Shown in pieces: positions 30,972-48,259 of a DNA stretch of 48,803 nucleotides (the first letter of the stretch is position 1; each line of letters begins with the position of its first letter). Below the pieces are notes generated by a model. That model saw only the letters and a program-made list of their open reading frames with translations. It was not told the DNA's origin and made no database searches. This stretch comes from Candidatus Woesearchaeota archaeon (GTDB lineage Archaea > Nanobdellota > Nanobdellia > Woesearchaeales > DSVV01), in NCBI GenBank assembly GCA_043813525.1, contig JBDRKY010000068.1, forward strand, positions 1 through 48,803, given 5' to 3'. A program made the position numbers and the translations under genes.

Positions 30972-31277
30972 TTAATTATCTTCAATGATTGAATAATCCT
31001 GTGGTATGCAGCAATGCATATCTTTGTTAACTTTTTTTGTATCATGATCAATACAGCTACTCACCTTATCTTCAACATAACCATCACCACAGCTAAAATC
31101 ACAGACTGCACCTTTAACTTTCTCACAATCAGACACACCAATATTGAACAATGCCAATCTTCCGGTGAATATCGCTGCAATAATGACAAGCACAAGCAAA
31201 GCTATAATAGCTATGATGATCATATTAAGTGATATATCTCCTTTTTTAGATTTAATTTTTTTAGATGTTTTGAACAT
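30972..31277 (-). CDS. Small pilin-like protein (class III signal peptide), six-Cys globular part
   Basis: MFKTSKKIKSKKG-DISLNMIIIAIIALLVLVIIAAIF, then six Cys in ~50 aa. Strong Shine-Dalgarno GAGGTGG on the minus strand at 31282-31288. Confidence 0.65.
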   Translation of the reverse strand: MFKTSKKIKSKKGDISLNMIIIAIIALLVLVIIAAIFTGRLALFNIGVSDCEKVKGAVCDFSCGDGYVEDKVSSCIDHDTKKVNKDMHCCIPQDYSIIEDN

Positions 31278-31357
31278 TTAACCACCTCATTTTGTGTATG
31301 TTTTATGTTTATTTAATATCAATTGTCGAATCTGATATATAAATATTACGCATAGTA

Positions 31358-31927
31358 TCAGATATTAGGACATTCCCCACCAACACATAACCAAATCTCC
31401 AATACTTCATCTGTTGGGTATATTGGAAGGGTATATGGTGTAACCTCAACACTTTTTGCTCTTGCAAATTCCTCTTCTAAATGCTTTATATCAGGTATTA
31501 TTTTAAGTGTACCGGCTTTTATCTTAAGATGAAATGGTCTGCCCATCTCCTTCAAAGATTCTGAAATAAGAGATATTGCACACACAGCTGCATCATCACC
31601 CATGTTGATATCCTTACAAGCATCCATATTAGAATACCTCTGTTCAAGCATATCAAGATTACAGGTGATTGTGCTTCCGCCGCCAGCTCTGACCATATCA
31701 ATCAACAGATCTTCTATAGTAGTATCTTTCGTACAACCAGAATCAGTCTTAAGCATGGCTCCTATTATGCTTGCTGACAGATCCTTTTGAATATAGCTTT
31801 CTAAAAAATCATCAGTTGGCTTAAAATACACTACTGAAACCACAAATAATACAACTAATGTGATTATAACTACAATGATCATCAGCCCCATTATTTCAGT
31901 CTGTGATTTTTTATGTTTATTTTTCAT
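31358..31927 (-). CDS. Pilin-like protein (class III signal peptide)
   Basis: MKNKHKKS-QTEIMGLMIIVVIITLVVLFVV. The start abuts the upstream stop (31927/31928). Confidence 0.6.
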   Translation of the reverse strand: MKNKHKKSQTEIMGLMIIVVIITLVVLFVVSVVYFKPTDDFLESYIQKDLSASIIGAMLKTDSGCTKDTTIEDLLIDMVRAGGGSTITCNLDMLEQRYSNMDACKDINMGDDAAVCAISLISESLKEMGRPFHLKIKAGTLKIIPDIKHLEEEFARAKSVEVTPYTLPIYPTDEVLEIWLCVGGECPNI

Positions 31928-32467
31928 TCAGCCAACAACCTCCAATACAATAAATCCAAAGCTGTTGGAATCAGCGATAGAATCATATATGGTAATAGGT
32001 ATAGATATTTTTTGAAAAGACTTTATGTCCTCATCTTTAATATATATATTATTAAATAATAGAATGCCTTCTTGATGAAGCAAATCTCCTGATGGTGCAA
32101 ATACCTGTTTGATTGTTATTTTTGCGTTAGGAAACATCTGCGCATAATACCTGCCATACCAATCCTTACCATCCATTACCAGTTTATAAACCTGAAGTTT
32201 TGCAAGATCAACACAATCAAACTCTTCAGTTGCTTGAGAAGTGCATTGTAATTCAGGAAGGAATTTAATTGCTAATGCCATATCAATTGCACGTTTAGCA
32301 TTAAACTCTTCACCATCTTTTTGAGTTATATGAGATTGTATCTTTGCATAAAAAACAAGACCAACAATAAGCAGTATAAAGAAGATTATAAGGACAATTA
32401 TAGATTCACCTAATTTAAGCTGTGATTGTTTCCTGAATTTCCTAATTTTCCTTATCTTTTTTTTCAT
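31928..32467 (-). CDS. Pilin-like protein (class III signal peptide)
   Basis: From the ATG at 32467: MKKKIRKIRKFRKQS-QLKLGESIIVLIIFFILLIVGLVFY. The longer ORF-track start at 32530 would overlap the upstream gene by 35 nt. Confidence 0.6.
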   Translation of the reverse strand: MKKKIRKIRKFRKQSQLKLGESIIVLIIFFILLIVGLVFYAKIQSHITQKDGEEFNAKRAIDMALAIKFLPELQCTSQATEEFDCVDLAKLQVYKLVMDGKDWYGRYYAQMFPNAKITIKQVFAPSGDLLHQEGILLFNNIYIKDEDIKSFQKISIPITIYDSIADSNSFGFIVLEVVG

Positions 32468-32495
32468 TTTATTTAAATTTATTAGTTCATTTGAA

Positions 32496-33584
32496 TCAAT
32501 ACAGCTTAGGGCATGAGTTAAGCACTGCATTTTGGTTTGTGTTAGCAGCTATATCATTTATATTTTTTAGTGCAATTAGATTATTAGCTGTGAATTGTCC
32601 AAGATATTTGATAGGTGTTTTAGGGAGTGACGCAAATCCTTCATAAATTTGGCTGCAATGTGAATATTTGGGATTATCTAACACATGTTGAGATAGGTAA
32701 CTTGCTCTTTCTCTGTAAATATCAAACAGACGATTAAGATGATTAAAGCTTTTTTCCATGCTGCATTTGTAAAAATCAGCATTCTCTGAAAAGATTGCAC
32801 CCATCAATGTTTCCTTTCCATAGTAACCATATTTAAGAACTGTAGCATAATTAACTCCATTTTTAACTTCATCCTTTGTGAAAAACATAGCATTACCTTC
32901 AAATACAGGCTCTAATACAACAACATCAAAATCACCTTTTTCAAAAAGTTCTGGATCAACTTTGATGTCGTCTTTACCAAACTGATAAAAAAAGACAAAC
33001 CTTATTTTTTCATGGCCTAAATCAGCCACATCAGCAAATTCATCATGTGCTTTAATCTCAACAGTGAGAAATTCATTATCAAGCATGAGATTATATACTT
33101 TGTTTGCAAAAGCTTCAGATACAGGATCATTATAAACAAGCACATATTTGATAGCAGGGCTTGTAAGATAAAGCAGATTACCTACTTTGAAAGGGACTGT
33201 CCAATCCAATGACCAAGTGATCAGATAATCGCTTTCAATATGTTCAGAGGTAAATATGACTTGGTGAGGAGTCTGTTTATTGACTCCTGTATCACCCATG
33301 GAAAAATCTGAGCTGCATCCTTCTTCACTGCAGTCTGGAAAACAAGTAAATCTCATCTCAAGTTTAGGTATCTCTAATTTCGTTGCTGATTTAGTTGAAG
33401 CAGTTGCGCCGCGCATGATTGAATCTAAATCAAACATAATCCTGCTGGCAAGCTTAATCTCAGAATTATGCAAATATGTTTTACCAGCAGATACAAAAAA
33501 TAAAAGTATGATTGTACCGACTATAAAGATAAATATCCAGTTAAATTGTACTTCAATGTCTCCTCTTTTTTTTAAGGTTTTCAT
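32496..33584 (-). CDS. Pilin-like protein (class III signal peptide), 362 aa
   Basis: MKTLKKRG-DIEVQFNWIFIFIVGTIILLFF, followed by a large soluble domain. Confidence 0.6.
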   Translation of the reverse strand: MKTLKKRGDIEVQFNWIFIFIVGTIILLFFVSAGKTYLHNSEIKLASRIMFDLDSIMRGATASTKSATKLEIPKLEMRFTCFPDCSEEGCSSDFSMGDTGVNKQTPHQVIFTSEHIESDYLITWSLDWTVPFKVGNLLYLTSPAIKYVLVYNDPVSEAFANKVYNLMLDNEFLTVEIKAHDEFADVADLGHEKIRFVFFYQFGKDDIKVDPELFEKGDFDVVVLEPVFEGNAMFFTKDEVKNGVNYATVLKYGYYGKETLMGAIFSENADFYKCSMEKSFNHLNRLFDIYRERASYLSQHVLDNPKYSHCSQIYEGFASLPKTPIKYLGQFTANNLIALKNINDIAANTNQNAVLNSCPKLY

Positions 33585-33594
33585 GTTATAATTA

Positions 33595-34104
33595 TTATGC
33601 TTCAGAGATCATCACACCATTACCTATACCAGTCATCTTGACTGAGAGTTTCCTGTCTGAAACTGCAAAGCATTTATATCCTTGTGGAATATCTTTATCA
33701 ACAATCATTTTAGTAAGATTTATTGGAGATTCCAACACAAAAGGTACAGTCATAACATTTTGTGATCCAGACTGCCAAGCATCACACATCACAGGATCAA
33801 GGTCAGGAAGGTCTATGCATCCACTTTTGTATTTGTCAGCAGTGAAAAAGCAGACTTTCTTGAGTTCCTTAGGAACAACATATGTCTTCACTTTCCAGCT
33901 GCCATATTTGGTGACCATCACATCAGTATCGTCTTGTAAACTTGTTTTGAATTCTACCAGGTCTATTGTCTCTACCTGTTTGAGAAGCTTGCCGATATAC
34001 TTAACACCTAATAACAATATCATACCAATGACAAAGATAGCAAGTATGTAAAATAACATCTGTTCAACCTGTGATTTTCGTTTAAATTTTCTAATTTTAG
34101 CCAT
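33595..34104 (-). CDS. Pilin-like protein (class III signal peptide)
   Basis: MAKIRKFKRKS-QVEQMLFYILAIFVIGMILLLGV. Lies 6 nt downstream of the 2405-aa gene. Confidence 0.6.
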   Translation of the reverse strand: MAKIRKFKRKSQVEQMLFYILAIFVIGMILLLGVKYIGKLLKQVETIDLVEFKTSLQDDTDVMVTKYGSWKVKTYVVPKELKKVCFFTADKYKSGCIDLPDLDPVMCDAWQSGSQNVMTVPFVLESPINLTKMIVDKDIPQGYKCFAVSDRKLSVKMTGIGNGVMISEA

Positions 34105-34110
34105 TAATTT

Positions 34111-37100
34111 TCACCTGTTTTTGTTTTTGAATTTTGCTAATTTTTTCAAAGCATCCCTGCTTTTTGATTTAACACCCAGTTTATCCAATGTGTTTATACT
34201 GCCTTTTTTTAGTTTGGATGATAATTTATCCAATGCAGAATCTGGTTTAAGTTTATCAGAGGATTTGTTCTTATTAAATCCAACTGATTTAACAGTTATT
34301 TTTTCTGTTTTGTCTGGTTTATTTTTAGGAATTGGCTTAACTAAAGATTTAACTGAAGATTTTGTAGTTGATTTAACTGATTGTTTAGCTGTTGGCGTAG
34401 TTGATAATATTTTGGGTGCAACCCTAAAATCTGTTTCTGTTTCTTTATCAGTTTTAGCCTTAAAAGCAGATGCAATCTCAAGCTTCTGTGCTTTAGTCTC
34501 AGCTTTTATTTCTTTAGTAAGTTCTTCTTTTCTTTTTTCATTCATTTCTTCCTTTCTTTGTTCTTTTGCTGCATTTATTCTTATCTTTCCAGCCTTAACT
34601 TCTTTTTCTGTCTCTTTAGGCTGGAGCTTAATATCATTACTTAATTTAGATCTTTCATCAAAAGCATTAAACATCTCCAATCTTTGCTTAAGTTTGCCAG
34701 ATGTTTTTTTCTGTCTCACATCTCTTGATAATGGCCTGAACAACGCATTCATATTATTAATCATGCTATTTTGCATTGACCTTTGCATTGGTTTAGGTTG
34801 CTGCATACCCTTTATGACAGGCCTTTGCTGCTGGATTGATTGAATAGTTTTAGGCATTTGCTGATGCATATTTTTGTTAGGAAATAATGGTTTCTCTTTT
34901 AAAAAATAATTAATATAATAGTAATATCCACAGCCGCCAAGCCCTGCAATCAATAATATCAAGATCAACCAAACAAATAAACTTGTACCCCCTTCTTTAT
35001 TATCATCTTTTTTAGGTTCTTCTGTTGTAGGTGGTTTTTCACATGAACTGCATGGTCCGCCGCAATCTATGCCTTCTTCTCCTTGATTTTTGATGCCATC
35101 ATCACAGCTTGCTGTTGATTCTTCACCTGGTTTGAGCTCACATTCCTTTGGACATTGTCCGCCACAATCAGCACCAAGCTCCTGTCCGTTCTGCACACCA
35201 TCATTGCATGTAGGTAAAGTACATAAACCAGCTTTGCAGTATCCACTTATGCAGTCACTATTGATATTGCAGTTCATATCATCTGCGCATGCTGCACAAT
35301 AACCGCCGCAATCTATGTCTGTCTCCAATTGATTAATGATGCCATCATCACACCCTGCACTTATGCATATGCCTAATTCACACTGGCCGCTCATACAATC
35401 AGAAACAAGATTACAGTTTTTACCATTTGAACATTCTTGGCAGCTTCCACCGCAGTCTATATCAGTCTCATCGTTATCTTTTACATCATTTTTACATAGA
35501 TCAATCTCTTCGTCAATCAAAATCTCCTCACCCGGATTATAATTAGGATCAACATATGTGCTATTGCTTGCGACAACACTCCATAAGCCAACAGAATTCT
35601 GCGCAATCACATTCCACCAATAAGTGGTCTCATTGTTTAGGTTTAGATTTTTTATTGTTTTCTTGTGGTCATCTGTTGAGCTCCATTCATATATATCATC
35701 CAGTCCAGCTGCAGTACCTATTGAAAAATTATATAATGAAACCATGATACCTTCATCATCTTCTGCTTCCCAGCTTGCTGTCAATGTTGTCAATGAATTA
35801 GTATAAGGCTGTGTTTTGACTTGAATATCAGGTGGTGATAGGTCTATATAAAATATGAAATGATCTTCAATCCATCCTTCTGCTGCAGTAAGGCATCTAA
35901 AATAGAAATCATGCTTGCCTTCAGAAAGCTGCAGAGGACCAGCAGTATGTATTTTATATCTATCAACACCTTCACTTACAGTGTTCATAACATATTGTTC
36001 TATCAGTTCTTTACTTGGACCAAATTCACAATTTGCTGCTTGTTTAGTTGTATGTAATTCAAAGGATACTGTGTTATAACCTAAATAAGTTTCAGGTTTG
36101 ACAAGAGTAAATCCTGTGAACATGGAAGTATTGACATTAAAAGTGAAATTTGCTTTTTCAGATATATGGTTTGATGCAGGCTCTGTTGGACCATTATCAC
36201 ACATGACATAATAAGTATAGCTATACCCATCAAACAGATTAGTTAAAGGCTGTTCATTGACAAAACTTAAATTTTCATATCCGTCAAAAGGCGTCATTGA
36301 AAAATAAGAGTCTGTATTGACAGTTGAGTATTTACATCTTGATTTATCATCTGTCACAATTGTAAGATTTGTAATAAGAGGATGTTCAACAATATTAGGC
36401 GGGCTTTTCCTGTCACTTGGCTCAATGAATACTTTCTCAAGGCTTGGAGGGGTGACATCCCATATCAATTCAACCTCTTTGATGTCAAACAAACCACCAG
36501 GGAAATCACATTTGATAAATACTGTATAATAAGTCTCTTCTGCCATCCCAGGAAAATTAATATGCTTCTTAAACTGTCTTCCTGATAATTTTTCTAATTG
36601 TGAAGTATAACCAACAAGAGGATTTGTTGATAATTTGCAGGTATCTGCAGGAGGAAGCTCTTTTGCGGTCTCAATGATAAGATCAAACTCTTCCACATCA
36701 GAAACACCTTTGATTGGTGATATTACATTTAATAGCTCTCCTTCAAAAGTAGATATGGCAATATAATACTCATAAACTGCAGAATCTTTGCCTGACCTGT
36801 CTTTTGCTGTCAAAACAATTTTATTATAACCTGAAGAAAGTTCTAATTCTTGGAAGAAATCATTGTTTGCATCAATATTCTCAAAAGATTGTATTGGTTC
36901 AAATTCTAATTCAATAGTTCCATCACCTGAATCTGCTCCATTTGTTCCAGTTGTTTTTGTTCCTGATGTTCCTGTTGCACCTGTTGCTGCCTGTAATTTT
37001 TGCAAAGCTTCTGCTGACAGACCATATACATTTATGTCTAATTTATTATTTGCAGGTGGACTAACTTCAGAATCACTATCAATTACTGCTCCTTTTAAAT

Positions 37101-40100
37101 TAAATAAAGTAGTATAATAGATATAAGGATTGAGTGGATCTGAATGAGGTTTAAGCAAAGGTACATCAATTACAGGACCATTATCAGAATCAATCAAAAG
37201 CTTGATGCATTTCTTTTGTTCTTGATTTCCACCATAATCTGTTCCTAAAGAATTATAAATATTTTCCTTTGATTGGTAACATAACCATTGTGATGATGCT
37301 GAAGATTCCACTTTGACAGATATATAAGGATCTATTACTGTTCCTTGTTGGCCTACACCTGACTGACCAATAACTTGTTGATTTCCAAAAGAAAGGTCGC
37401 ACTTAGCAGCACCTGATTGCAGGCAATAAATAGTATTTTCACAGCCAAAACCAAATTCAGGCTCATCATTGCATTCCAAGAACACAGAATCACCAGCCTC
37501 ATCTTTGTTATACCATTTTGAATAATCAAATGGCACACCACTGCCGCTTGTCAAGCTAGTTACTGGTGGAGTGATATCATAGACAAATTGTATCTCATCT
37601 TTGTGTAATTCATTGCTTAATGCAGGGAATTTGCACATTACTTTAAACTCATAAAGGCCATCTTCTGCCAAAGAGCTCTGTGTTGAATATTTCTTGAATT
37701 TACCGTTGGTATTATCATCTGTTTCAGTATCAAAAGATGTCAAGAGCTCAAATGAATCAGATGTACCATACCTGCAGTCACCTTTATGCAATGTTTTTAT
37801 TTCTAATTTGATAGGAGAATAATCAATCTTACCCATAGGAAGTGATGCCTGTATCTCCTGATCAGCATCAATAGTCACAAAAGTAGTCTTATTGATTTTA
37901 TTATCAAGCATATCTGTGCATACCACAGTATAATAATAAGTTCCATCTGTAAGACCATTATAGTTAGACTGAAAATATTGTCCCTGCTCATAATTAATCT
38001 TTTTTATACCATCATAACCTTCAAAGATATCATAACATTCCTTTGCAATCTCATCCAGTTCAACTGCAAAGAGTATAGAACTATCATCATATGGCTTTGA
38101 TTTGTCATAGGTAATGTATGGTGTAATCTTTATTTCAGGAGGTTTTTTATCAACATTAAATATGAAGCTTTTTACTTCTTCAAGATTTTTTGCGCCATCT
38201 GTTGAATAAAAGAACATAGTTTGTTTACCATTTTCTTTTGGTATTGAGATATAATCTAAGCCATCTTCAGGCTTAAATAATATGTTAGGATAACAATATC
38301 CTTTATACCCTTCATAATTAACTGTTAATTCTGTTGTTTCAGCAGAAAAGCCATAATTCTGATTGTTTGGGTGGCTGATTATGCTCTCAGACAACAATTT
38401 GTCTTCAGGAAAACAGTAATAGGTCTTTAATTCACCTGAACTTGGTCTGCCGTAAGGTGTTGGATCAGTGACAGCAAATTTTAATCTAATCTCATCAACA
38501 TTTGCAGGGACAATAACTTCTGTGACAGGAGGAATTATATCTATGGCTTTTTTACCAAGAGCAGTGCCGCCATCATGCTTGCCATCACCATCTGCATCTT
38601 TTATGCAATTATCACTTAATGGATTCCACCTGCATACACCTAATCCGAGAATGTCATTGCTCTTCCATTTGAGCTTGTTTGTACCCCATATCCTTTTTGT
38701 CCCGCCAGAAGTAAGATACCATGCATCAACTTCAACATCCCACGCATCCCCTGTTCCTTTGTAGCCATTTGCATGGCAATCTTTCTCATTATCTTTATAA
38801 TTAGTGCATGTCAACTCATGCTGTTCAACACATTTTTTGTTTAGATAATTGATATAGCATTTTGTATTTTCTGTGCTGAAACTTTCATAACATATATCTT
38901 TGGTGCATGAAGCAAATACACTGTTAGCACTCATTTTGTTGCACATATCACATGTCTTATAGTTTTCAACTTCATTAATACATAAGCCAATATCTAAAGA
39001 TCCTTTTTCAATTTCATCAGTTAATTTATTATCATAAGATGATTTCCACATACAGTTTTGTGCTAAGCATTTATTATTTGGCGTAAGATCATCCTCATCA
39101 AGAGCATATTGTTCACATGCTGTCTTAGATTTATAATCTGAACAGCTTCCTATATTTTTGCAATAACCATAAGCATCTTTGACAGTATTTGTAAAATCAT
39201 AATTGCAGATTGCATTTTTACTGCAGTCCATCTCAGAATCAACAACATTATAATCCATAAACCCTTTAGGAACACCAAGCATGCTTCCGTCTTTTCCTAA
39301 GCTGCCATACATGTTAAAAGGCTGTCCGCAAAATATACATGGTGTATTTGAAATGCAGCCAGTAGTGACTTTCCCATTTTCCTTTTTTTCGATACATATT
39401 GTATCAGGCCATGAATCACCATAACCATCACATTCATCAGATTGTAACAGATTATTTTCATCACAATAATATTTAAGGCTTTCAGAACCCACACCCATAC
39501 CTTCCCCTCTTAGACAAAAATCACCAGTATGGCTAAGACAGATATTGTGGCCTGAAGCAATATGTTCAATAGTTGAAAAACTTACTTCTTTGTCAGGATA
39601 AGTTGATTTGATGACATAGCTGTAATGTTTAAGATTATTATTAGAATTGCTTCCTTCAATCTTTGTATCATAGATACCAATAACTTCATAATTAGGGTTA
39701 AGGTTCGCACCTGGTTGGACAACACCATCTTTGCCAAAGCAAGGCATCTGTATGATAGTATCTGAATCTTTAGAATATACTATGCATTGTACTTGATCAG
39801 TTATATCTGTAAATTTAAAACTTGTCTCTAATGTAATCATGCTTTGAGAATCAGCGCCGCAGTTTCCTGGTGTGCCTTCGCATCTCATGATATTGAGTTC
39901 AATATTATTTTCCTGACAGCCAAAATAAAAACTTATGTTAATCCTTGGTTTTCCATAATCATGATTCAGTTTTAATTCCTGTGCAGGCATATGAAGACTC
40001 ACACATTTACACTGTCCGCATGTATCAGGAATGCCATCATTATATTTACAATCATTCACATTGCTTTTTATTATATCACCATTAGAGTTAGTTTCAGGAA

Positions 40101-41353: not shown

Positions 41354-41370
41354 ACTATATATAAAGTTTA
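41354..41370 (-). promoter_or_regulatory. BRE/TATA-like box for the 2405-aa gene
   Basis: The minus strand reads taaactttatatatagt. The TATA portion lies 28-35 nt upstream of the ATG at 41328. Confidence 0.35.
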
Positions 41371-41429
41371 TTAGTTTTATGTTATTATTGATAAATAGTT
41401 ATATATTATTAATACATATTGAGAAAAAA

Positions 41430-43808
41430 TTATTTGCATCCATCTTTTGTACATTCTTTATCTTTAGAGCATGGTTTAGATACTGTCTTAAAATTATGAT
41501 TAGACACCTGCATATGAAAATAACATATATCTTCATTATGGCAATAGCCTTTATAGAATGAGCCTTCAGTGCATGGACCAGGGATATAAATAAAATATAC
41601 ATTTTTGTCTGGAATCAAAGATGTCATCACAGAACTTTTTTGGTTGACACTATAAATTTTCTTGTTTATGTAAAGGTTTTTGTTGCCATCAGCAGCATCA
41701 TAACCAAAAGTATTGCCGCCTTTCTCTACAAAATTTCTGAACTCATCTGTTTCTGGTACAACAAAAGGGCCGGCATTGTTCACTGTATTTTTGACAATAA
41801 CATATCTTCCATCTAAATAATACATCTCATAAGGAAGTTTAGTCCCTTCTAATGCTTTGGATATAAGCACATCAAACTCATCATTGTTGACAGGTGACTG
41901 CATTGTTTCAGTTGACATTTCTGTTGGTTGTTGAGATGATAATGGTTGTGTTTCCGTTGGTTGTTGAGATAGTGATTCTGTTGGTTGGATAGGCTGGATA
42001 GGAGAAGTATCATGTTCAATATCTGAATTTGGAGATTCAGAATATTCTGGAGCAATTGGTACAGTAGGAATAGAATCAGATGAACCTTCATCTCCACTTG
42101 GTGCAAAAAATATTGATTGTGCAATTACCTGTTTTTTCCCCAAAGTTACAATGCTATCTTGAAATACCCCTAAAGATTTTCCTTCGACAATATAACCTTT
42201 TGAATTATCATATGTACTGAATGCATCTTTAGGCAGTATTAATATTTTAATTTCCTGCCAATCACATTGATTCATCAAATCACATACTTTGATTTTAATT
42301 ATTCTTGCACCAATATCTTTTTTTCCAAGTTTGTAGGTCACTTTTCTTAATGGAGATGCAGGCGATGAAGAAGAGAATGATGAAGGGGCAGTCGTTGATA
42401 CCAGACAGCTTTTGATGCCATTCAAAAAACTATTGATATTAGAATTTTCTGAGCCTGAAAATATACAATCAAGAGCACCATCGCCATCTTTATCTTCTTT
42501 AAATTCAGTATATCCATTAACAAAATTTCCATTTAGCCAGCTTTGGAAATCATATATATAACCATAATTCATAAGATTGTCACTGCCATAATAATCTTCA
42601 TCAGGATCATAGCCATAAGGATCAATGACTAAAGTCATTCCTTCAACAAGTATTGCATCATAATCAAAATTATCCATTTTCAGACCATCAATAGTGATAT
42701 AATCAAGTGCAGGATATCTATTTTGGAAAACAACCTGATAATCAAATTTATGTCCATCGATCATCGATTCAGTATCACTTATTGTTATGATATAATCTTT
42801 GTTAGGCAGTAATTTTTTTTCAACAATCATACCAGGTTTAAGGCAGCTTTTATCATTATCACTTCCGCAATTTTTCAGGACTGCTGCATTTCTCACATCA
42901 AAAAATATATTTTTTGAATCCTCCTGCCTGATTCTAGCCAATAAATCAAACATCTGTTTCAGCCTTATATTTTTTTCAACAGTTATGCCGCTGATATCAA
43001 TTGTTGGCGAAGTTTCATCAACTGTTATTGACAGACTTAAATTCATCCTTGAAATCACAGTAGTCTCACCAATGATTATATCAACATTCATATTTTCTTT
43101 AATGATATTATACCCTTGAAGCTCTGGTAGAGATTCTAATTTTATGCAGTCATCTGTTTTTTGTGTGATGTAGCTTTCCAGATATTCCTGTACTGAATTT
43201 ATATCTTTGATGTCAGCAGAATCAAACATTTTAGGTGCATCGCCGCAGTATGGATCAATTGAATCATGAAAGCTGTTTGGCCCATTTTTATCACATAATG
43301 GAATAAAAGGGTCGTCAGATAATGCACTGATAAATGGTGTTGAGAAAGAAGTATAGCCGTATACAGCAATATCTGAGCTTAGAAAAGGCTCTGATATTGC
43401 AGTATAAATTTCATTCTTAAAAGGATATTCCGGAACTTTTCTGCCAGTTCCTGTTGCAGAAACTTCAGGAGCAAGAAGAGCATAATGTATCTTCACACCA
43501 TCTTCATCTTCATAATATCTGCTGTTCTTGTCAGGTTTGCCGTTTATAGTCTGGCTGTCATAGATAGCACCGCCTTGTTTTCCAATGAGCTGCAGGCCTT
43601 GTTTTGTTGCTTGATCAAGACAGCTTTTGATATAAGTAGTATATTTTCCTTTTCCTATGAATAGCTCTTCAACCTGCTGCTGCTTTGCCTTGACAGATTT
43701 GCCTGTGCTGTTAGACACACCATAGAAAGCCAAACCTATAAGGATTACAGCAGTTATACCAAGAATCATAAAAATAGCAATTTGAGATTTCCTGTTCATG
43801 TTCAGCAT
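41430..43808 (-). CDS. 792-aa protein with pilin-type N-terminus and large extracellular body
   Basis: The track start at 43811 is TTG. The ATG at 43808 gives MLNMNRKS-QIAIFMILGITAVILIGLAFYGV. GAGGGG lies 10 nt upstream. There is a Pro/Gln/Thr/Ser-rich linker (~41880-42110) and a Cys-rich C-terminal ~50 aa. Confidence 0.8.
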   Translation of the reverse strand: MLNMNRKSQIAIFMILGITAVILIGLAFYGVSNSTGKSVKAKQQQVEELFIGKGKYTTYIKSCLDQATKQGLQLIGKQGGAIYDSQTINGKPDKNSRYYEDEDGVKIHYALLAPEVSATGTGRKVPEYPFKNEIYTAISEPFLSSDIAVYGYTSFSTPFISALSDDPFIPLCDKNGPNSFHDSIDPYCGDAPKMFDSADIKDINSVQEYLESYITQKTDDCIKLESLPELQGYNIIKENMNVDIIIGETTVISRMNLSLSITVDETSPTIDISGITVEKNIRLKQMFDLLARIRQEDSKNIFFDVRNAAVLKNCGSDNDKSCLKPGMIVEKKLLPNKDYIITISDTESMIDGHKFDYQVVFQNRYPALDYITIDGLKMDNFDYDAILVEGMTLVIDPYGYDPDEDYYGSDNLMNYGYIYDFQSWLNGNFVNGYTEFKEDKDGDGALDCIFSGSENSNINSFLNGIKSCLVSTTAPSSFSSSSPASPLRKVTYKLGKKDIGARIIKIKVCDLMNQCDWQEIKILILPKDAFSTYDNSKGYIVEGKSLGVFQDSIVTLGKKQVIAQSIFFAPSGDEGSSDSIPTVPIAPEYSESPNSDIEHDTSPIQPIQPTESLSQQPTETQPLSSQQPTEMSTETMQSPVNNDEFDVLISKALEGTKLPYEMYYLDGRYVIVKNTVNNAGPFVVPETDEFRNFVEKGGNTFGYDAADGNKNLYINKKIYSVNQKSSVMTSLIPDKNVYFIYIPGPCTEGSFYKGYCHNEDICYFHMQVSNHNFKTVSKPCSKDKECTKDGCK

Positions 43809-43840
43809 CAATCATTTACCCCTCTTTTAATCTTAATATT

Positions 43841-46800
43841 TCAAGTTTCTGCATATCTGATCTTTGCAGTGAGATCCTGCCAATATTTCATGACATACAT
43901 ATCCTGTTCATCATCTGAATCATATTCTGACATTGTCGGTGCTATGACAACAGCATAATTATTATTGCCATCAGCCATGCTCTTTCCTATTTCACCTTCT
44001 TTTGTTTTACTATCATGACAGATCAGTTCAGGCGCAGCTTCTTTTATAGTATCACATGATATCACACTACCATCAAACACATTAGTATAATTGATGGCAT
44101 AAAAATACTTCACCTTGCCAGCAAGATCAGACGATGATGGTTGAGAATCTGATTTCCTTTCAACAATACCAAAGATTTCTCTCATAACAGGTGTAGCAGG
44201 ATTTGAATTATCAAGATGTTTCGCATAATACAGCCTGTCAAAATCACTTATAGCAGAGATGATTGACATATCTTTGGTCTGTGCAATGATGTCTTTATTT
44301 TTCTCTTGATAAGATTTTATGCTTTTTACATGTTTGTTTATTGCATTTTGTGATGACACCACAGTTGTATAGAACATACCAAGATTAACAATTGAACTAT
44401 TAGAAAAAATTATTGCGTTGGTATAATTATTATAAAGCAAATGATCATTTTCACATTTCTTAAAAGAAATAAAAGGTTCTGTATCAAAATTAATGCCACC
44501 TGGATTTGTTTCACTAATAGTAGTTTTACAATCTTTTTCATTGTAAACCTTTGTTATAAGATTAAATAAATACTCACTGTTCAAAATACCTTTTGCATCT
44601 GATTCACCATAGAACAGCTTGCCAAGATCTTTCATGTTATGCATATCAACTGTTTTGGGTGCATTAGGAATACAGCTGCCAGGATCAATATCATTGCCAT
44701 CATCATCTTTATCATGCGCACATTCTTCATTATCACTGCAGTCATTATTATCAATGCAGTTAGCAACACATGTCCCTTTGCTGTATGCAGGTGCTTTATA
44801 GCAGGTATATCCTTTCCAAGACATGCCATCATCAGCTGCAGGACAGTCTGCATCAACACTGCACGCTGAAAAAGGATCAATAGTTTCCTGATTATATAAT
44901 ATTTCAGGTATTGTATCATAATCTATCCTTGGGTTTAAAGTTGTACCGATATAAACAGCATCTGGAAATTTTAATACACAGAAATTGTTATAATCATTCT
45001 CATCAACAAAAAGCTCTTCTGGCAGTTCAATATTATATTGGTTAAGCACATATTCAGGTGTATCGCAATGCAGCACAAAATCATCTGGTGAGCCATATTC
45101 TTCATTAACTGCAAAATTCCATAATGCAAAAGCTAAATATTTAGTTCTTGATGACCATTTAGCAGTCTTTGGCTCTTTAAAATTGCTGCCTGAATAAGTA
45201 GGTTCACAGAATCTATCGCCAATAAACATAGCTGGCTCTCTTGTACACAAAGAATTTGGCTGAGTATATTTTTCACATATATCAATCTCACGCTGGTCTT
45301 CATCATTCAAAGAATATGCTTTACTTTCAGGACATGCGCATGACCAGTCATCGATGCAATACTGCAATCCAACAATTTTAGGATCAGTCTCTCCTCCAAA
45401 CTTTTCACCATACCAGTTGTAAGATGCTTCTCCTAATTCCCATTTGCTGTTAGCGCATAGATAGATTTTCTTAGCATCGCCAGAACCTTTTGATTTCGTC
45501 TCACCATTAGCAACACATTTGCTTCCATCCCAACAATCCCCCTCAATACAGCATCCTTTATCAGAAATTATATTAGAACTTTTGAGGTCATCAGGCACTT
45601 CTGATTCCTTTAATTTTTCATATTCACTTGGATACCTGCCAAGCATTTGATATACAGAATCAGATTCATCTGGCTGAGCATATATATCCATACTGACCCA
45701 AGTATTGTTAGGCATACAATAAGCAAATTTAGCATCTCCATCCCACATATCATAATCATCCAAGAGGTAGAAGGAATCGCAATGATTGTGGACATTATTA
45801 CTATTTTTAATAAAAAGTTGATTATTTGGAGTAGATAAGGGGTTATAATTCTTATCACTAATTTTACTAAAAGCATAAGTATAACCCATATCTTTTAATG
45901 GTGCATTTGGATAGCTACATAATTGGAGTTCACCTTTATCATTAAGTATTGAAAAACTTGGAGGATAACATTGTATATGTAATTGTATATTATTATTATC
46001 ATTTGTAGTTTTTGATGATTCTTTTGGAACTACAGCTCCTTTATCACCATGAACATTAAAACAACATTGTTCTTGGTCTTTAACACTACCATCAATTATG
46101 TTAAGTTCAATTAAAGGATATTGAGGAGCAGGTATAAAATTTTGGCATGTGAATATATTATTAGAAATATATATCAAAGAGACAGATTGCATATATGATG
46201 AAGCTGGAACATTCTTCACTTCACCATGCCCAACAGCTTCACCCATATAACAGGCTTTGTTAGGCATTTTCCATACATCATCTCCGTCAACCTCAGCATT
46301 TAATGAATACAATTTTAGTTTATCTTTAGATAAAACATAATGTTCACCATCATCAGCAGTATCATGGAAATTTTCAAGAACTTTAACTTGTGGATTATAA
46401 GCAAATTTTCCACCGCAACAATGATGGCCTGTCCATGTTCCACCAAGATATAGATTGCAGATATTAAGATCATCAGAATCAACACCATCATTATCTTTAT
46501 CAAACTTTTTTAGGTCTGCTGAACTGTATTTAGCCACAATATCATAGATATAATCTGGTGCCATTGGATTTAATTTGAATTTATTATCATTAACATAAGG
46601 AACATTATCTTTGGTATAAGGCTTTTTTGCATTTGCATCGACACCAAAATAGTGTATTTCACCTGCTTCATGGCCAAACAACCATTCAAAATTATCACCT
46701 GTCTGATTAAAGAAATGATGACAATATAATGGTGCCCTCTTACCCTTAACATCATTCATCTTAAGGTATCTTACACCGACATCTGTTGTTGTTGTTGCAT

Positions 46801-48004
46801 CACCATACTTTGCTTGGAACAGATTCATAACTTGGTTCTCTGCTTCAGGATCAAAATCATTGATATAAGTGTCATAAGCACTGTGTATACCTGAGAATTG
46901 GGTTAGATAATTAGGTGTACAATACACATTTCGATAAGGATGATTTCCAACCTTAGAAGATGTCTGCCCTGATTGCGCTTCTGTAAATTTAACATCTTCA
47001 TATCCATATAAGCATAATTCATCTACTGTTTTTCCATCAGTCTTTCCATCATAATCATTAACACCATTCATTATCCATAGATAATCATCCCCACAGCATT
47101 CATCTTTTTGAGAAATCGCTTCTTTACCATCTGGACCAAAATTCCAGAAATTATTAAATTTTTTACCTACATTATCAATAGAAGGATAATCAATATTCAA
47201 ATGTTTACCTAAACATTTACTAACACCATCATTATAGCTTTCCCAATCAACCTCATATTCATATTTCCCATCATACACATGTGAATAATCATTTAATATC
47301 TCACCTTCTTCATATTGTGGAAGTTGTTTAATATAATAGTTCACAAACTCATCATCAGGAGTATTAACACAATCAGATGCAGATAAATCATCTATATTAT
47401 CATCTTCACAATTCTTAACTTGTTTTACAGATATTGGTCCTCCATATTTTAGCTCATTAGAACCATCTTCATTTTTATGGTATTCATGGTATAAATAATG
47501 CTGACCTTTAACATAAGTTTTACAAAAACCTTCATAAATAAAATTCTTCATGTTTTTTTTGTCTGACCTTATTCCAACATTATCATTTTCATTTTTAAAA
47601 TATGTTATTCCTATTTTATCATTTGAAGTAGTCCAATAATTAGTATTGTCTTTAGCGTTATAGCTTGTATCAACTGCGCATTCATCAGAACCTTCACAGA
47701 AATTCTTGAGAAAACCACCATCATAATCAGAAACAGTCATTTCCTTGAATATAGGATAACCTAAGATAGGTACCATACTTCCATCATCATTAATCTCATT
47801 TCTGACACATTCAAATCCAAGACCTAACTCAAGCAAAGAGCTGCCATAAAACTGTTCAGAATCAAAATCAGAACTTTCCTTACCACCAATAGCATCGCCA
47901 ACTTTAGGGTTAATTGTTGCTGTTGAGATTATTGAAGTAAGGCTAAGAAATAATAAGAGCATTGACAATATACATAATAGCAACAAACCTCTTTTTTTCT
48001 CCAT
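43841..48004 (-). CDS. Giant (1387 aa) secreted Cys-rich protein
   Basis: The track start at 48025 is TTG. The ATG at 48004 is preceded by AAGGAG 9 nt upstream. MEKKRGLLLLCILSMLLLFLSLTSIISTA signal. Cysteines throughout. No C-terminal TM. Confidence 0.8.
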   Translation of the reverse strand: MEKKRGLLLLCILSMLLLFLSLTSIISTATINPKVGDAIGGKESSDFDSEQFYGSSLLELGLGFECVRNEINDDGSMVPILGYPIFKEMTVSDYDGGFLKNFCEGSDECAVDTSYNAKDNTNYWTTSNDKIGITYFKNENDNVGIRSDKKNMKNFIYEGFCKTYVKGQHYLYHEYHKNEDGSNELKYGGPISVKQVKNCEDDNIDDLSASDCVNTPDDEFVNYYIKQLPQYEEGEILNDYSHVYDGKYEYEVDWESYNDGVSKCLGKHLNIDYPSIDNVGKKFNNFWNFGPDGKEAISQKDECCGDDYLWIMNGVNDYDGKTDGKTVDELCLYGYEDVKFTEAQSGQTSSKVGNHPYRNVYCTPNYLTQFSGIHSAYDTYINDFDPEAENQVMNLFQAKYGDATTTTDVGVRYLKMNDVKGKRAPLYCHHFFNQTGDNFEWLFGHEAGEIHYFGVDANAKKPYTKDNVPYVNDNKFKLNPMAPDYIYDIVAKYSSADLKKFDKDNDGVDSDDLNICNLYLGGTWTGHHCCGGKFAYNPQVKVLENFHDTADDGEHYVLSKDKLKLYSLNAEVDGDDVWKMPNKACYMGEAVGHGEVKNVPASSYMQSVSLIYISNNIFTCQNFIPAPQYPLIELNIIDGSVKDQEQCCFNVHGDKGAVVPKESSKTTNDNNNIQLHIQCYPPSFSILNDKGELQLCSYPNAPLKDMGYTYAFSKISDKNYNPLSTPNNQLFIKNSNNVHNHCDSFYLLDDYDMWDGDAKFAYCMPNNTWVSMDIYAQPDESDSVYQMLGRYPSEYEKLKESEVPDDLKSSNIISDKGCCIEGDCWDGSKCVANGETKSKGSGDAKKIYLCANSKWELGEASYNWYGEKFGGETDPKIVGLQYCIDDWSCACPESKAYSLNDEDQREIDICEKYTQPNSLCTREPAMFIGDRFCEPTYSGSNFKEPKTAKWSSRTKYLAFALWNFAVNEEYGSPDDFVLHCDTPEYVLNQYNIELPEELFVDENDYNNFCVLKFPDAVYIGTTLNPRIDYDTIPEILYNQETIDPFSACSVDADCPAADDGMSWKGYTCYKAPAYSKGTCVANCIDNNDCSDNEECAHDKDDDGNDIDPGSCIPNAPKTVDMHNMKDLGKLFYGESDAKGILNSEYLFNLITKVYNEKDCKTTISETNPGGINFDTEPFISFKKCENDHLLYNNYTNAIIFSNSSIVNLGMFYTTVVSSQNAINKHVKSIKSYQEKNKDIIAQTKDMSIISAISDFDRLYYAKHLDNSNPATPVMREIFGIVERKSDSQPSSSDLAGKVKYFYAINYTNVFDGSVISCDTIKEAAPELICHDSKTKEGEIGKSMADGNNNYAVVIAPTMSEYDSDDEQDMYVMKYWQDLTAKIRYAET

Positions 48005-48259
48005 ATATACACACTCCTTTTTCAAACTTCAGCAAACAACAGCAAAAGATAAGATAAAAATGCTAAATAGCTGATAAATGATATTATATCTTAGGTAATA
48101 ATGCAAGTCAGTAGACTTACAATTATTATAATCTTATTTTTTATATATATAAAGTTTCTGATTTTTAATAGATTTTATATTTTTAATTTATTTATATATC
48201 AATAAAAATATAAAAGCAAAAAATATTAATACCTGCACTTTTAGAAAGATAATAATCTA

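What the first reader, a model, noticed from the sequence alone, without database searches (positions are those of the whole stretch)
30972..48025. Single-strand locus coupling six class-III-signal (archaeal pilin-like) proteins to two giant cysteine-rich surface proteins
Seen: from 48004 down to 30972 every gene is on the minus strand, with gaps of 0-101 nt. Six of the eight products start with a short Lys/Arg-rich stretch, then S-Q or G-D, then about 20 uninterrupted hydrophobic residues. The six N-termini are RKS-QIAIFMILGITAVIL, RKS-QVEQMLFYILAIFVIG, KRG-DIEVQFNWIFIFIVG, KQS-QLKLGESIIVLIIFF, KKS-QTEIMGLMIIVVIITL and KKG-DISLNMIIIAIIALLVL. The other two products are 2405-aa and 1387-aa Cys-rich proteins with N-terminal signal sequences. 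An AbrB-PhoU regulator follows 37 nt downstream. Established: this N-terminal layout is the class III signal peptide of archaeal type IV pilins/archaellins, which PibD/EppA-type prepilin peptidases cleave. EppA substrates carry Gln at +1. Inference: the locus encodes a pilus-like or surface-fibre adhesion module in which giant Cys-rich proteins are displayed or anchored together with a set of minor pilins. That would be a plausible host-contact apparatus for a small-genome episymbiotic archaeon. I do not recognise this gene combination as a described system. No assembly ATPase, platform protein or peptidase lies in the window.
Basis: partly seen in the sequence, partly recalled or inferred. 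Interest (0 to 1): 0.8.

Follow-up and report, generated by a model that had tools for sequence, protein, structure and literature searches.

The report
Woesearchaeal pilin-like operon with giant surface proteins
This is a real operon, conserved across about 50 species of the tiny Woesearchaeota archaea, that combines a set of type-IV-pilin-like proteins with two giant cysteine-rich surface proteins; it is probably a cell-surface fibre or attachment apparatus built from protein families that no database yet names.

Summary
Eight minus-strand genes (30972-48025) lie 0-101 nt apart. Six begin with [KR][KR]-[G/S], then Q or D, then a hydrophobic helix. Two are giant Cys-rich Sec-signal proteins (2405 aa, 4.6% Cys; 1387 aa, 3.5% Cys).

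- Across about 50 Woesearchaeota/Nanoarchaeota species the order giant - A - B - C - D - E is kept on one strand.
- In five of the pilin-like families position -1 is only Ala, Ser or Gly, -2 is Lys/Arg, and in four of them +1 is almost always Gln. This is the pattern of EppA-type prepilin peptidase substrates.
- A high-confidence AlphaFold model of the 362-aa protein has a 55-residue N-terminal helix followed by a β-sheet. The rest has no PDB neighbour.
- An archaeal A24 prepilin peptidase is encoded in a related genome that carries the locus.
- No pilus ATPase or platform gene lies in the window or in 1 Mb of related loci.
- No product matches Pfam, NCBIfam or PDB sequences.

Two more pilin-like genes (18058-19917) and a 779-aa gene (15493-17832) also belong to the system.

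Archaeal pilus loci with minor pilins plus large adhesin or S-layer-like proteins are already described. I therefore rate this a new variant of a known kind, built from undescribed families.

The parts
43841..48004 (-). G1: 1387-aa secreted Cys-rich giant protein. It has a Sec-type signal peptide and no C-terminal anchor. It is the first gene of the operon. The ORF also has an upstream TTG at 48025.
   Evidence: Translation. 49 Cys, one N-terminal hydrophobic segment only. Only 6 homologues, all Woesearchaeota, always first in the locus. Orthologues have ordinary Sec signals. No Pfam, NCBIfam or PDB hit.
41430..43799 (-). F: 789-aa pilin-like protein. Layout: MNRKS|QIAIFMILGITAVIL, a large globular part, an S/P/T/Q-rich linker (about 575-650) and a C-terminal Cys-rich domain.
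   Evidence: Family F occurs in 28 loci. Position -1 is A8/S5/G4 and +1 is Q in 17/18. No Pfam hit.
34111..41328 (-). G2: 2405-aa type-I membrane giant. Sec signal (1-24). Cys-rich N-terminal ~900 aa with three DxDxDG motifs. At least 5 'D..PP' β-sandwich module starts (930-1830). Four CGGxC modules (1956-2100). TM (about 2112-2135). 275-aa Lys-rich cytoplasmic tail.
   Evidence: A G2-like giant lies within 3 genes upstream of B in 49/54 loci. Weak Big_13 hit only. No PDB sequence hit.
33595..34104 (-). A: 169-aa pilin-like protein (KRKS|QVEQMLFYILAIFVIG).
   Evidence: Found in 57 loci. Immediately upstream of B in 46/54. Position -1 is A24/S10/G10 and +1 is Q in 40/44.
32496..33584 (-). B: 362-aa pilin-like protein (KKRG|DIEVQFNWIFIFIVG). 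It is the largest core member.
   Evidence: The profile finds 1904 cluster representatives. N-terminal logo. AF2 pLDDT 94.4, helix 6-60 followed by a β-sheet 67-141. No Foldseek PDB neighbour.
31928..32467 (-). C: 179-aa pilin-like protein (FRKQS|QLKLGESIIVLIIFF). The ORF runs up to 32530, but orthologues start at the MKK... position.
   Evidence: Position -1 is A27/S13/G7, +1 is Q in 47/47, +6 is E in 45/48.
31358..31927 (-). D: 189-aa pilin-like protein (HKKS|QTEIMGLMIIVVIITL).
   Evidence: Position -1 is A17/S17/G11, +1 is Q in 45/45, +3 E and +6 G are invariant. N-terminus is homologous to that of B (hhalign 92.6%, E 4e-7).
30972..31277 (-). E: 101-aa pilin-like protein with a 6-Cys head (SKKG|DISLNMIIIAIIALLVL). 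It is the candidate major subunit.
   Evidence: 89 family members in 43 loci, often 2-5 tandem copies. Family consensus is K-[GA]-Q-G-L-S-L-N. Weak, non-significant in-register hits to archaellin N-termini.
30008..30934 (-). R: 308-aa regulator with an AbrB/MazE-type DNA-binding N-domain. The C-domain is unassigned.
   Evidence: Pfam MazE_antitoxin 4e-8. Present beside the locus in 17 loci, on either strand. No PhoU signal.
18058..18960 (+). H: 300-aa pilin-like protein (KNKKA|MAMNKLLQSVLIIGFF).
   Evidence: phmmer hits to the ~300-aa pair that follows D/E in most loci, and to the pair contiguous with R in L001/L014/L015.
18970..19917 (+). I: 315-aa pilin-like paralogue of H (FNKKS|IVASFVLIGVLAMTF).
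   Evidence: In the H/I family position -1 is G18/A11/S5.
15493..17832 (-). 779-aa cytoplasmic protein with weak TPR signal. It is linked to R-H-I in related genomes.
   Evidence: Homologues lie next to R in L001, L014, L015, L047, L050, L057, L058, L061 and L065. Pfam gives TPR_14 at 5e-4 only.

Best explanation
The locus is the structural-subunit operon of a type-IV-filament-like surface apparatus specific to Woesearchaeota and related Nanoarchaeota.

The proposed mechanism has five steps:
1. Six products here (A, B, C, D, E, F), plus H and I elsewhere in the window, are prepilin-like. They are inserted through Sec. [inferred]
2. A membrane A24 aspartic prepilin peptidase of the EppA/FlaK type, encoded elsewhere in the genome, cuts after the small residue of the [KR][KR][G/A/S] motif. 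This exposes Gln (or Asp/Val) as residue 1. [inferred]
3. The mature proteins keep a long hydrophobic N-terminal helix. [helix shown in the B model]
4. A secretion ATPase and platform encoded elsewhere extract these helices from the membrane and bundle them into a short fibre or pseudopilus. E, which is small and multi-copy in relatives, is the bulk subunit. The invariant four-gene block A-B-C-D forms a minor-pilin priming or tip complex. F is a pilin with a large adhesive head. [inferred]
5. The two giant Cys-rich proteins are exported by ordinary Sec signals. G2 stays anchored by its C-terminal TM, like an S-layer or adhesin-like wall protein. G1 is released and is held by the fibre or by G2. 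[Sec signals and TM shown; association inferred]

Together they would give a disulfide-stabilised attachment structure, regulated by the adjacent AbrB-type protein.

Shown: the gene order and its conservation, the signal motif and its constraint, the helix-plus-sheet architecture of B, and a peptidase in a related genome.

My confidence by claim: class III-type proteins about 0.8; fibre assembly about 0.5; physical coupling to the giant proteins about 0.5; a role in host or cell attachment about 0.35.
For: - Gene order and tight spacing.
- Synteny in 55 non-redundant loci from about 50 species: A directly upstream of B in 46/54; a G2-like giant within 3 genes upstream in 49/54; C-D directly downstream in 44/47; E downstream in 36/42; all on one strand in 55/55. 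Flanking genes differ between genomes.
- Signal motif: -1 is restricted to A/S/G, -2 is K/R, +1 is Gln in families at about 25% identity. It matches the EppA substrate sites [KR][GA]Q[IVL], with +1 Gln required (PMC4371748).
- The N-terminal modules of different families are homologous and in register at the cut site (hhalign 92.6%, E 4e-7).
- AF2 model of B: pLDDT 94.4, helix 6-60 then a β-sheet.
- Peptidase: Peptidase_A24 + Arc_PepC + Arc_PepC_II hits on a 353-aa, 9-TM protein 4.3 kb upstream of G1 in L013/L066/L067. It has 103 homologues, many carrying PF01478/PF06819, in Woesearchaeota and Nanoarchaeota.
- E occurs in tandem multi-copy arrays.
- G1 and G2 orthologues have AxA-type Sec signals, and G2 has a C-terminal TM.
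- Literature: TFF ATPases occur in nanoarchaea whose cognate pilins were not identified, and archaeal T4P loci combine minor pilins with large Cys-rich proteins (PMC4858521). DPANN carry system 1/4A/Aap-like machineries (bioRxiv 10.64898/2026.04.22.720090).
Against: - No secretion ATPase, FlaJ/TadC platform or peptidase lies in the window. None was found within 10 kb of the locus in 66 related loci, about 1 Mb.
- No product hits any curated pilin or class-III model in Pfam or NCBIfam.
- Four of the six window proteins have Ser at -1. This is outside the [GA] at -1 that I recall for the FlaFind rule (recalled, not verified), and I could not find evidence that Ser is cleaved.
- The globular part of B has no structural neighbour in PDB and so is not a recognisable pilin head.
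- The peptidase gene is consistently linked to HxsD and radical-SAM genes. Its proximity to the locus in one lineage may therefore be coincidental.
- The very broad, near-universal distribution in the clade fits a housekeeping envelope role as well as an adhesion organelle.
Confidence: 0.55

Rival explanations
1. It is an envelope scaffold and not a filament. G2 (with G1) is the S-layer or wall protein of these cells. The small proteins, cleaved or uncleaved, stay in the membrane by their N-terminal helices as a stalk or anchor complex that organises it. This would be a housekeeping cell-envelope module similar in spirit to the Sulfolobus bindosome or SlaB-type anchors.
For: - The locus or its core occurs in every sampled lineage: 1904 B-family clusters and 52 species from only two search patterns.
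- A giant protein with a C-terminal TM always lies directly upstream of A.
- No assembly ATPase is ever linked to the locus.
- Makarova 2016 assigns S-layer-like roles to C-terminally anchored Cys-rich proteins in T4P loci.
Against: - The strict [KR][GAS]|Q constraint and the conserved acidic residue at +3 or +6 are features of cleavage and helix-helix assembly. A plain membrane anchor does not need them.
- E-type small subunits in tandem arrays look like filament subunits.
- A long Lys-rich cytoplasmic tail is unusual for S-layer proteins.
Confidence: 0.25
2. It is a type-II-secretion-like pseudopilus. A-E form a piston that pushes G1 and, in sister lineages, peptidoglycan hydrolases across the envelope. 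It would not be an adhesive fibre.
For: - A five-member set with one large member (B) resembles a GspG-H-I-J-K set. This analogy rests on my own knowledge.
- In distant loci, conserved KK[GA]-type scaffold proteins carry swapped peptidoglycan-hydrolase domains: M23, muramidase, VanY, Amidase_3, DUF2272 and 3D. This suggests an export or delivery role.
Against: - G1 and G2 have their own Sec signals, and archaea of this kind have a single membrane, so no second translocation step is obviously needed.
- The hydrolase block is absent from the window and its close relatives.
- No secretin, ATPase or platform is linked.
Confidence: 0.12
3. The six are unrelated secreted or membrane proteins with ordinary Sec signals or signal anchors. 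The resemblance to class III signals is a by-product of AT-rich, Lys-rich coding.
For: - No pilin-family HMM hit.
- In this 30% GC genome, Lys-rich N-termini are common. The subtilase at 8319 also starts MRKKS followed by a hydrophobic stretch.
Against: - Position -1 is only A/S/G and +1 is Gln across about 50 species in four or five independent families.
- Enrichment is 6/8 against 1/33 (p = 4e-5).
- The N-terminal modules are homologous between families.
- True Sec signals in the same operon (G1, G2) look different, with AxA sites about 20-25 residues in.
Confidence: 0.04

Closest known systems
Epd pilus locus of Methanococcus maripaludis (archaeal TFF 'system 1' / Makarova clade 1)
   Same: - Several minor pilins with [KR][GA]|Q processing sites cut by a dedicated large A24 peptidase (EppA).
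- One small major pilin.
- Large adhesin-like proteins in the same cluster.
- System 1 is reported in DPANN.
   Different: - The Epd cluster includes the ATPase (EpdL), two platform genes and EppA. Here no machinery gene is linked in any of 66 loci.
- No sequence match to DUF361/PF04021 or to DUF2341/PilY-like models.
- The motif after Gln differs: Q-x-E-I-M-G-L, Q-L-K-x-G-E and x-I-E-V-Q-F-N-W, instead of QxSxExxxL.
- Ser is frequent at -1.
Thermoproteales T4P loci (Makarova 2016 subclades 4B/4G)
   Same: - Many small, diverse minor-pilin-like proteins.
- One large protein with a C-terminal TM (S-layer-like) and one large signal-peptide protein (adhesin).
- Nearly all components are rich in conserved cysteines.
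- Pilin genes can lie far from the machinery genes.
   Different: - A different phylum and unrelated sequences.
- The proteins here are far larger (2405 and 1387 aa).
- G2 has a 275-aa Lys-rich cytoplasmic tail.
- The gene order is fixed across a whole order-level clade.
Bacterial T4aP minor-pilin operon fimU-pilVWXY1E (Pseudomonas) and T2SS GspH-I-J-K
   Same: This comparison rests on my own knowledge. It is an operon of four or five minor (pseudo)pilins that prime assembly and sit at the tip. It is encoded together with a large (>1000 aa) tip adhesin, PilY1, and apart from the ATPase genes.
   Different: - No homology is detectable.
- The bacterial leader is G|F with E5 and N-methylation.
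- PilY1 has a β-propeller and no TM anchor.
- The archaeal proteins have Gln-1 and an acidic residue at +3 or +6.
Castelle et al. 2021 'Module 98' (51 protein families specific to Pacearchaeota and Woesearchaeota)
   Same: - The same taxonomic restriction.
- Mostly unknown function.
- It includes giant extracellular proteins proposed to mediate attachment to hosts (PMC8204110).
   Different: - That study lists co-occurring families and describes no locus, pilin-type signals or gene order.
- Whether A-F, G1 and G2 are among those 51 families was not checked.

Membership tests
Archaeal type IV pilin-like proteins (class III signal peptide substrates) | A short basic leader ending in [KR]-[small residue], directly followed by a hydrophobic segment of about 20 aa at the extreme N-terminus. 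| tested here: met
   All six, plus H and I. The feature is conserved in orthologues: -1 is only A/S/G and -2 is K/R.
Archaeal type IV pilin-like proteins (class III signal peptide substrates) | A strict FlaFind-type site with G or A at -1. I recall this rule from Szabo 2007; the paper could not be read here. | tested here: inconclusive
   B (KRG|D) and E (KKG|D) fit. A, C, D and F have Ser at -1 in the window, but their orthologues alternate among A, S and G. Cleavability of Ser at -1 could not be verified.
Archaeal type IV pilin-like proteins (class III signal peptide substrates) | The mature protein begins with a long α-helix packed against a β-sheet. | tested here: met
   B only: AF2 pLDDT 94.4, helix 6-60, strands 67-141.
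Archaeal type IV pilin-like proteins (class III signal peptide substrates) | A match to curated pilin or archaellin N-terminal models (Pfam, NCBIfam), or structural similarity to solved pilins. | tested here: not met
   No hit at E <= 1. Foldseek has no PDB hit at E <= 1e-3. The E-family profile gives only E of about 1 to archaellins.
Archaeal type IV pilin-like proteins (class III signal peptide substrates) | Actual cleavage by an A24 prepilin peptidase. | not testable with these tools
   A peptidase gene is present in a related genome that carries the locus. None is in the window.
EppA substrates / DUF361 (PF04021, QxSxExxxL) | Gln at +1. | tested here: met
   A, C, D and F in the window. 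The value is about 100% in those families, and it is the majority in family E. The requirement is stated in PMC4371748.
EppA substrates / DUF361 (PF04021, QxSxExxxL) | The QxSxExxxL motif or a hit to PF04021. | tested here: not met
   No Pfam hit. The motifs here are QxEIMGL, QLKxGE, QxxQxF and QI[TA]IF.
Complete type IV filament (TFF) system | A secretion ATPase (FlaI/PilB type), a FlaJ/TadC platform, a pilin and a class III peptidase in the genome. | not testable with these tools
   Only 48.8 kb of the genome is available. There is none in the window and none in 66 related loci. A peptidase was found in a relative. The literature reports TFF ATPases in DPANN and nanoarchaea.
PilY1-like tip adhesin (DUF2341 / Neisseria_PilC) | Sequence match of the large protein to PilY1/DUF2341 models. 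| tested here: not met
   G1 and G2 have no Pfam, NCBIfam or PDB sequence hit.
S-layer-like large protein of archaeal T4P loci (Makarova 2016) | A Sec signal, a large ectodomain with conserved Cys, and a single C-terminal TM. | tested here: met
   G2. Homology to arCOG05471 was not tested because no arCOG library was available.
AbrB-PhoU regulators | An AbrB/SpoVT N-domain plus PhoU repeats. | tested here: inconclusive
   The AbrB/MazE domain scores 4e-8. No PhoU hit by Pfam at E <= 1, by NCBIfam or by a family profile against PDB.

The most novel reading that the evidence does not exclude
The locus is the core of a lineage-defining contact organelle of Woesearchaeota and Nanoarchaeota. In this reading a fibre of new-fold, pilin-like subunits is tied to giant envelope proteins. 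In sister lineages its conserved pilin-like scaffold proteins carry interchangeable peptidoglycan-hydrolase heads (M23, muramidase, VanY, amidase, DUF2272, 3D). It would therefore be an apparatus for attaching to and breaching bacterial cell walls. That would make these archaea episymbionts or predators of bacteria and would identify the hardware they use.
Probability: 0.2. Interest if true: 0.85.

Novelty: new variant of a known kind. Interest (0 to 1): 0.6.

Why it matters
Woesearchaeota are among the most abundant uncultured DPANN archaea. How they touch other cells is unknown.

- This operon is conserved in order and content across at least 50 species. One of its families has about 1900 clusters at 50% identity. 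It carries no annotation in Pfam, NCBIfam or PDB.
- Makarova et al. [quoted passage not shown] This locus supplies candidates for those missing pilins.
- It gives concrete targets for metaproteomics, cryo-ET labelling and peptidase assays: eight prepilin-like proteins, two giant surface proteins and one regulator.
- The confidently modelled B protein has no solved structural neighbour.
- The link in sister lineages to swappable peptidoglycan hydrolases makes it directly testable whether some DPANN archaea target bacteria.

Tried and rejected
1. Pfam and NCBIfam scans of all products gave nothing beyond the AbrB/MazE domain of the regulator.
2. PDB sequence searches with G1, G2 and with profiles of families B, D, E and R gave no significant hit. 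Archaellin N-termini appear only at E of about 1 for family E. There is no PhoU hit for R. The LRR-design hits for R are spurious.
3. The first AF2 run of B, with 11 sequences, was poor (pLDDT 64.7). The 124-sequence alignment fixed it. Foldseek against PDB found no neighbour for either model.
4. The search for an assembly ATPase used Walker-A regexes over 915 ORFs of 66 loci. The only GxxGSGKT hits of note were RadA (L025/L028). I did not identify the others; none looks like a secretion ATPase. A multi-TM screen found no FlaJ/TadC candidate and only the A24 peptidase in L013.
5. I asked whether the peptidase is genuinely linked to the locus. It lies 4.3 kb from G1 in one species. In two other lineages it sits beside HxsD and radical-SAM genes. 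The nearby 1386-aa gene in L068 is not a G1 homologue. I therefore do not count the linkage as evidence.
6. Exact look-up of the window's own B protein in the contig index failed: it is not on record.
7. Rfam and tRNA scans of the window were empty.
8. The primary papers on FlaK/PibD/EppA site specificity were not available.
9. A mobile-element origin is rejected. There is no integrase, the composition is like the rest of the window, and the locus is present in all relatives.

Full report
**Observation**

The ORF listing and direct translation give eight consecutive minus-strand genes from 48025/48004 to 30972:

| Label | Coordinates | Length |
|---|---|---|
| G1 | 43841-48004 | 1387 aa |
| F | 41430-43799 | 789 aa |
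| G2 | 34111-41328 | 2405 aa |
| A | 33595-34104 | 169 aa |
| B | 32496-33584 | 362 aa |
| C | 31928-32467 | 179 aa |
| D | 31358-31927 | 189 aa |
| E | 30972-31277 | 101 aa |

- For C, the ORF extends to 32530, but orthologues begin at the inner Met.
- The gaps are 0-101 nt. A 308-aa gene follows 37 nt downstream.
- All six quoted N-termini are exact.
- G2 has 111 Cys (4.6%) and G1 has 49 (3.5%), against 1.4% in the window's other ORFs.
- The basic-[GAS]-hydrophobic N-terminus occurs in 6 of these 8 genes and in 1 of about 33 other ORFs (p = 4e-5).
- The window is archaeal (TrmB regulators) and about 31% GC. It also carries pyrimidine-biosynthesis genes, a subtilase and transporters.
- It has no tRNA or Rfam feature.

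**Whose genome, and is the gene combination conserved?**

B has only 11 close relatives in the word-indexed database; those that carry a name are Candidatus Woesearchaeota. G1 has only 6. Every contig fetched for these relatives keeps the same order on one strand: [~1250-1400 aa] - [~760-850] - [~2200-2300] - [~160] - [~360] - [~175] - [~190] - [~91]. The flanking genes differ.

A profile of B, searched against 1.84 billion cluster representatives, finds 1904 proteins (876 at E <= 1e-30). The named ones are Woesearchaeota or Nanoarchaeia. A scan of one genome per GTDB species returned 52 loci.

I called ORFs in all 66 loci held, including the window, and built iterated family profiles. In 55 non-redundant B-centred loci:
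- A lies directly upstream of B in 46/54.
- A G2-like giant lies within three genes upstream in 49/54.
- C-D lie directly downstream in 44/47.
- One to five E copies lie downstream in 36/42.
- The core is on one strand in 55/55.

G1 and F are present in a subset (17 and 28 loci) and are shorter in distant clades. In many clades G2 is split into two genes (~1650 + ~1440 aa).

Window 18058-18960 (H, 300 aa, KNKKA|MAMNKLL...) and 18970-19917 (I, 315 aa, FNKKS|IVASF...) are homologues of a ~300 + ~300-aa pair. That pair directly follows D/E in most loci. The 779-aa gene at 15493-17832 has homologues next to the regulator in nine loci.

In the closest relatives (L001, L014, L015) regulator-779-H-I are contiguous. 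In the window about 10 kb, including the pyrimidine genes (20416-29996), separates them.

**Are the N-termini class III signals?**

Three lines of evidence say yes for the motif. None proves cleavage.

1. *Constraint on the motif.* Counts are.

| Family | -1 | +1 and beyond |
|---|---|---|
| A | A24/S10/G10 | Q 40/44 |
| C | A27/S13/G7 | Q 47/47; +6 E 45/48 |
| D | A17/S17/G11 | Q 45/45; +3 E and +6 G invariant |
| F | A8/S5/G4 | Q 17/18 |
| H/I | G18/A11/S5 | variable |

Position -2 is K/R in about 90% of sequences. In 147 B representatives at no more than 50% identity to each other, -1 is G79/A59/S3, -2 and -3 are K/R in 142 and 138, and +3 is E/D in 128. The motif [VI]-Q-F-N-W follows. The family-E consensus is K-[GA]-Q-G-L-S-L-N.

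2. *Match to a characterised class.* The M. maripaludis Epd pilins are cut at RAQI, KGQV and KGQL. EppA requires Gln at +1 (PMC4371748; PMC2910488).

3. *Shared N-terminal module.* The N-terminal modules of different families are homologous and align in register at the predicted cut site. D against B gives hhalign 92.6%, E 4e-7. D against E gives 48%, E 2e-4. This is the pilin hallmark of a shared N-terminal helix with unrelated heads.

By contrast, G1, G2 and their orthologues have ordinary Sec signals with AxA-type sites.

Caveats:
- No product hits any curated pilin or class-III model.
- Four of the six window proteins have Ser at -1, outside the [GA] at -1 that I recall for the FlaFind rule.
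- The primary specificity papers were not available.

**Structure**

With a 124-sequence alignment, AlphaFold2 models B at pLDDT 94.4 and pTM 0.89:
- a 55-residue N-terminal helix (6-60);
- an antiparallel sheet (67-141);
- an α/β domain;
- a helical bundle.

The helix-plus-sheet start is pilin-like. The whole model has no PDB neighbour: the best Foldseek E-value is 0.04 and TM is below 0.3. B is therefore a pilin-like protein with a head that matches no solved structure.

**Giant proteins**

G2 reads as a type-I membrane protein:
- Sec signal (1-24);
- a Cys-rich ~900-aa region with three DxDxDG motifs;
- at least five β-sandwich-type modules, each opening with D-x-x-P-P (930-1830; weak Big_13 hit);
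- four CGGxC modules (1956-2100);
- a TM (about 2112-2135);
- a 275-aa cytoplasmic tail with 20% Lys.

G1 has a Sec signal and no anchor. Neither matches Pfam, NCBIfam or PDB sequences.

**Machinery**

No ATPase, platform or peptidase lies in the window. All ORFs were scanned. None of the 915 ORFs in the 66 loci has a secretion-ATPase Walker A or looks like FlaJ/TadC.

One related species that carries the locus (L013/L066/L067) encodes a 353-aa, 9-TM protein 4.3 kb upstream of G1. It hits Peptidase_A24 (3e-5), Arc_PepC (5e-4) and Arc_PepC_II (4e-3). Its 103 homologues are mostly Woesearchaeota or Nanoarchaeota. Many carry PF01478/PF06819 and names such as FlaK, CpaA or PulO-like.

I do not count the proximity as linkage. 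In three lineages the peptidase is followed by HxsD and radical-SAM genes, and the large gene near it in L068 is unrelated to G1.

The presence of an ATPase and platform in these genomes could not be tested. [quoted passage not shown] It also reports system 1, 4A and Aap-like machineries in DPANN (bioRxiv 10.64898/2026.04.22.720090).

**Most likely mechanism**

Sec inserts the eight prepilin-like proteins. An EppA/FlaK-type A24 peptidase removes the basic leader after the small residue. The mature Gln-1 helices are assembled by an unlinked ATPase/platform pair into a short fibre.

- E is small, has a six-Cys head and occurs in tandem copies in relatives. It is the candidate bulk subunit.
- The invariant A-B-C-D block is the candidate priming or tip complex.
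- F is a pilin with a big adhesive head.
- G2 is the membrane-anchored wall or adhesin partner. G1 is a released partner.
- The AbrB-type protein regulates the operon.

Shown here: the anatomy, its conservation, the motif constraint, the architecture of B, and the peptidase in a relative. Inferred: cleavage, assembly, the pilin-giant interaction and the attachment role.

The main rival is that the same proteins form a non-filamentous envelope scaffold around an S-layer-like G2. The absence of linked machinery and the near-universal distribution favour it. The assembly-type sequence constraints and the tandem E arrays argue against it.

**Comparison with known systems**

The architecture is not unprecedented. 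Makarova et al. 2016 describe archaeal T4P loci with the following features:
- at least five minor pilins plus two large proteins;
- PilY-like DUF2341 adhesins in the Methanococcus-type system;
- in Thermoproteales, a C-terminally anchored S-layer-like protein plus a signal-peptide adhesin, with nearly all components Cys-rich;
- pilin loci separated from machinery loci.

The bacterial fimU-pilVWXY1E operon is the functional analogue (my own knowledge).

What is new:
- None of the ten families is in Pfam or NCBIfam.
- The gene order is fixed across an order-level DPANN clade.
- The giants are much larger, and G2 has a long basic cytoplasmic tail.
- Ser is frequent at -1.
- B's head has no solved relative.

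Castelle et al. 2021 listed 51 Pace/Woesearchaeota-specific families of unknown function (Module 98) without describing a locus. No paper found in eight completed literature searches describes this operon.

**Verdict**

- Novelty: a new variant of a known kind (an archaeal TFF pilin/adhesin module).
- Interest: 0.6.

The most novel reading still open draws on sister lineages. There, conserved pilin-like scaffold proteins of the extended locus carry interchangeable peptidoglycan-hydrolase domains. The system may therefore be the hardware by which these archaea attach to, or attack, bacteria.

Noticed in passing
L018, L023, L026, L033, L036, L056 (e.g. L033:14514-16502, L023:17615-19456, L036:12606-14663, L018:17187-19870, L056:18266-20350): Downstream of the A-E block, distant Woesearchaeota loci carry a second conserved block of KK[GA]-type proteins. 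Their C-termini carry different peptidoglycan-hydrolase domains in different genomes: M23 (1e-24), muramidase (5e-39), VanY/M15, Amidase_3, DUF2272 and 3D. The layout is a conserved scaffold with a swappable head. It is absent from the window.
   Followed up: partly
L013:4635-7870, L066:10001-13236, L068:10001-15360, JGI 3300072015 contig: In three lineages the Woesearchaeal A24 prepilin peptidase gene is always followed by HxsD and one or two radical-SAM genes. L068 also encodes a His-Ser-Ser repeat (HxsA-like) protein. The peptidase may therefore serve a His-Xaa-Ser peptide-maturation system as well as, or instead of, the pilins.
   Followed up: partly
window 15493-19917: Two further pilin-like genes (H, I) and a 779-aa TPR-like gene belong to the same system. 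They are contiguous with the regulator in the closest relatives. In the window about 10 kb, including the pyrimidine genes, separates them from it.
   Followed up: yes
window 8319-12065: A 1248-aa subtilase (Peptidase_S8, 3e-47) starts MRKKS-VLVIVLLFLVSF. This is the same K-K-S plus hydrophobic layout, so it could be another class III substrate or an ordinary Sec signal.
   Followed up: no
L011:16356-17189, L012:11179-12012: A Bro-N domain gene (277 aa, opposite strand) is inserted between F and G2 in one species. This looks like a mobile or viral gene insertion inside the operon.
   Followed up: no
L025:6430-8130: A 566-aa, 12-TM cation/H+ exchanger-like gene is inserted between A and B in one lineage.
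   Followed up: no
Loci (e.g. L018, L023, L056 = OZ246410.1, 774-kb chromosome): About 20 MAGs titled 'uncultured Methanosarcinales archaeon' carry this Woesearchaeota-type locus, and the one complete chromosome among them is DPANN-sized. The organism label looks like a placeholder or a misassignment.
   Followed up: no
window 15493-17832: The 779-aa protein contains ...NKDAHPENWVID..., which is reminiscent of a protein-kinase-like catalytic loop. Pfam gives only weak TPR hits.
   Followed up: no
L005:10001-10960 (P0007): The database gene call for this B orthologue (319 aa) starts inside the gene. The ORF with the KK[GA] leader is 360 aa. Automated calls therefore clip the signal in some records.
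   Followed up: partly
window 1181-2731: A 516-aa Asn-rich protein with an N-terminal signal and a C-terminal hydrophobic anchor has no Pfam hit. It is another uncharacterised surface protein, unrelated to the locus families.
   Followed up: no
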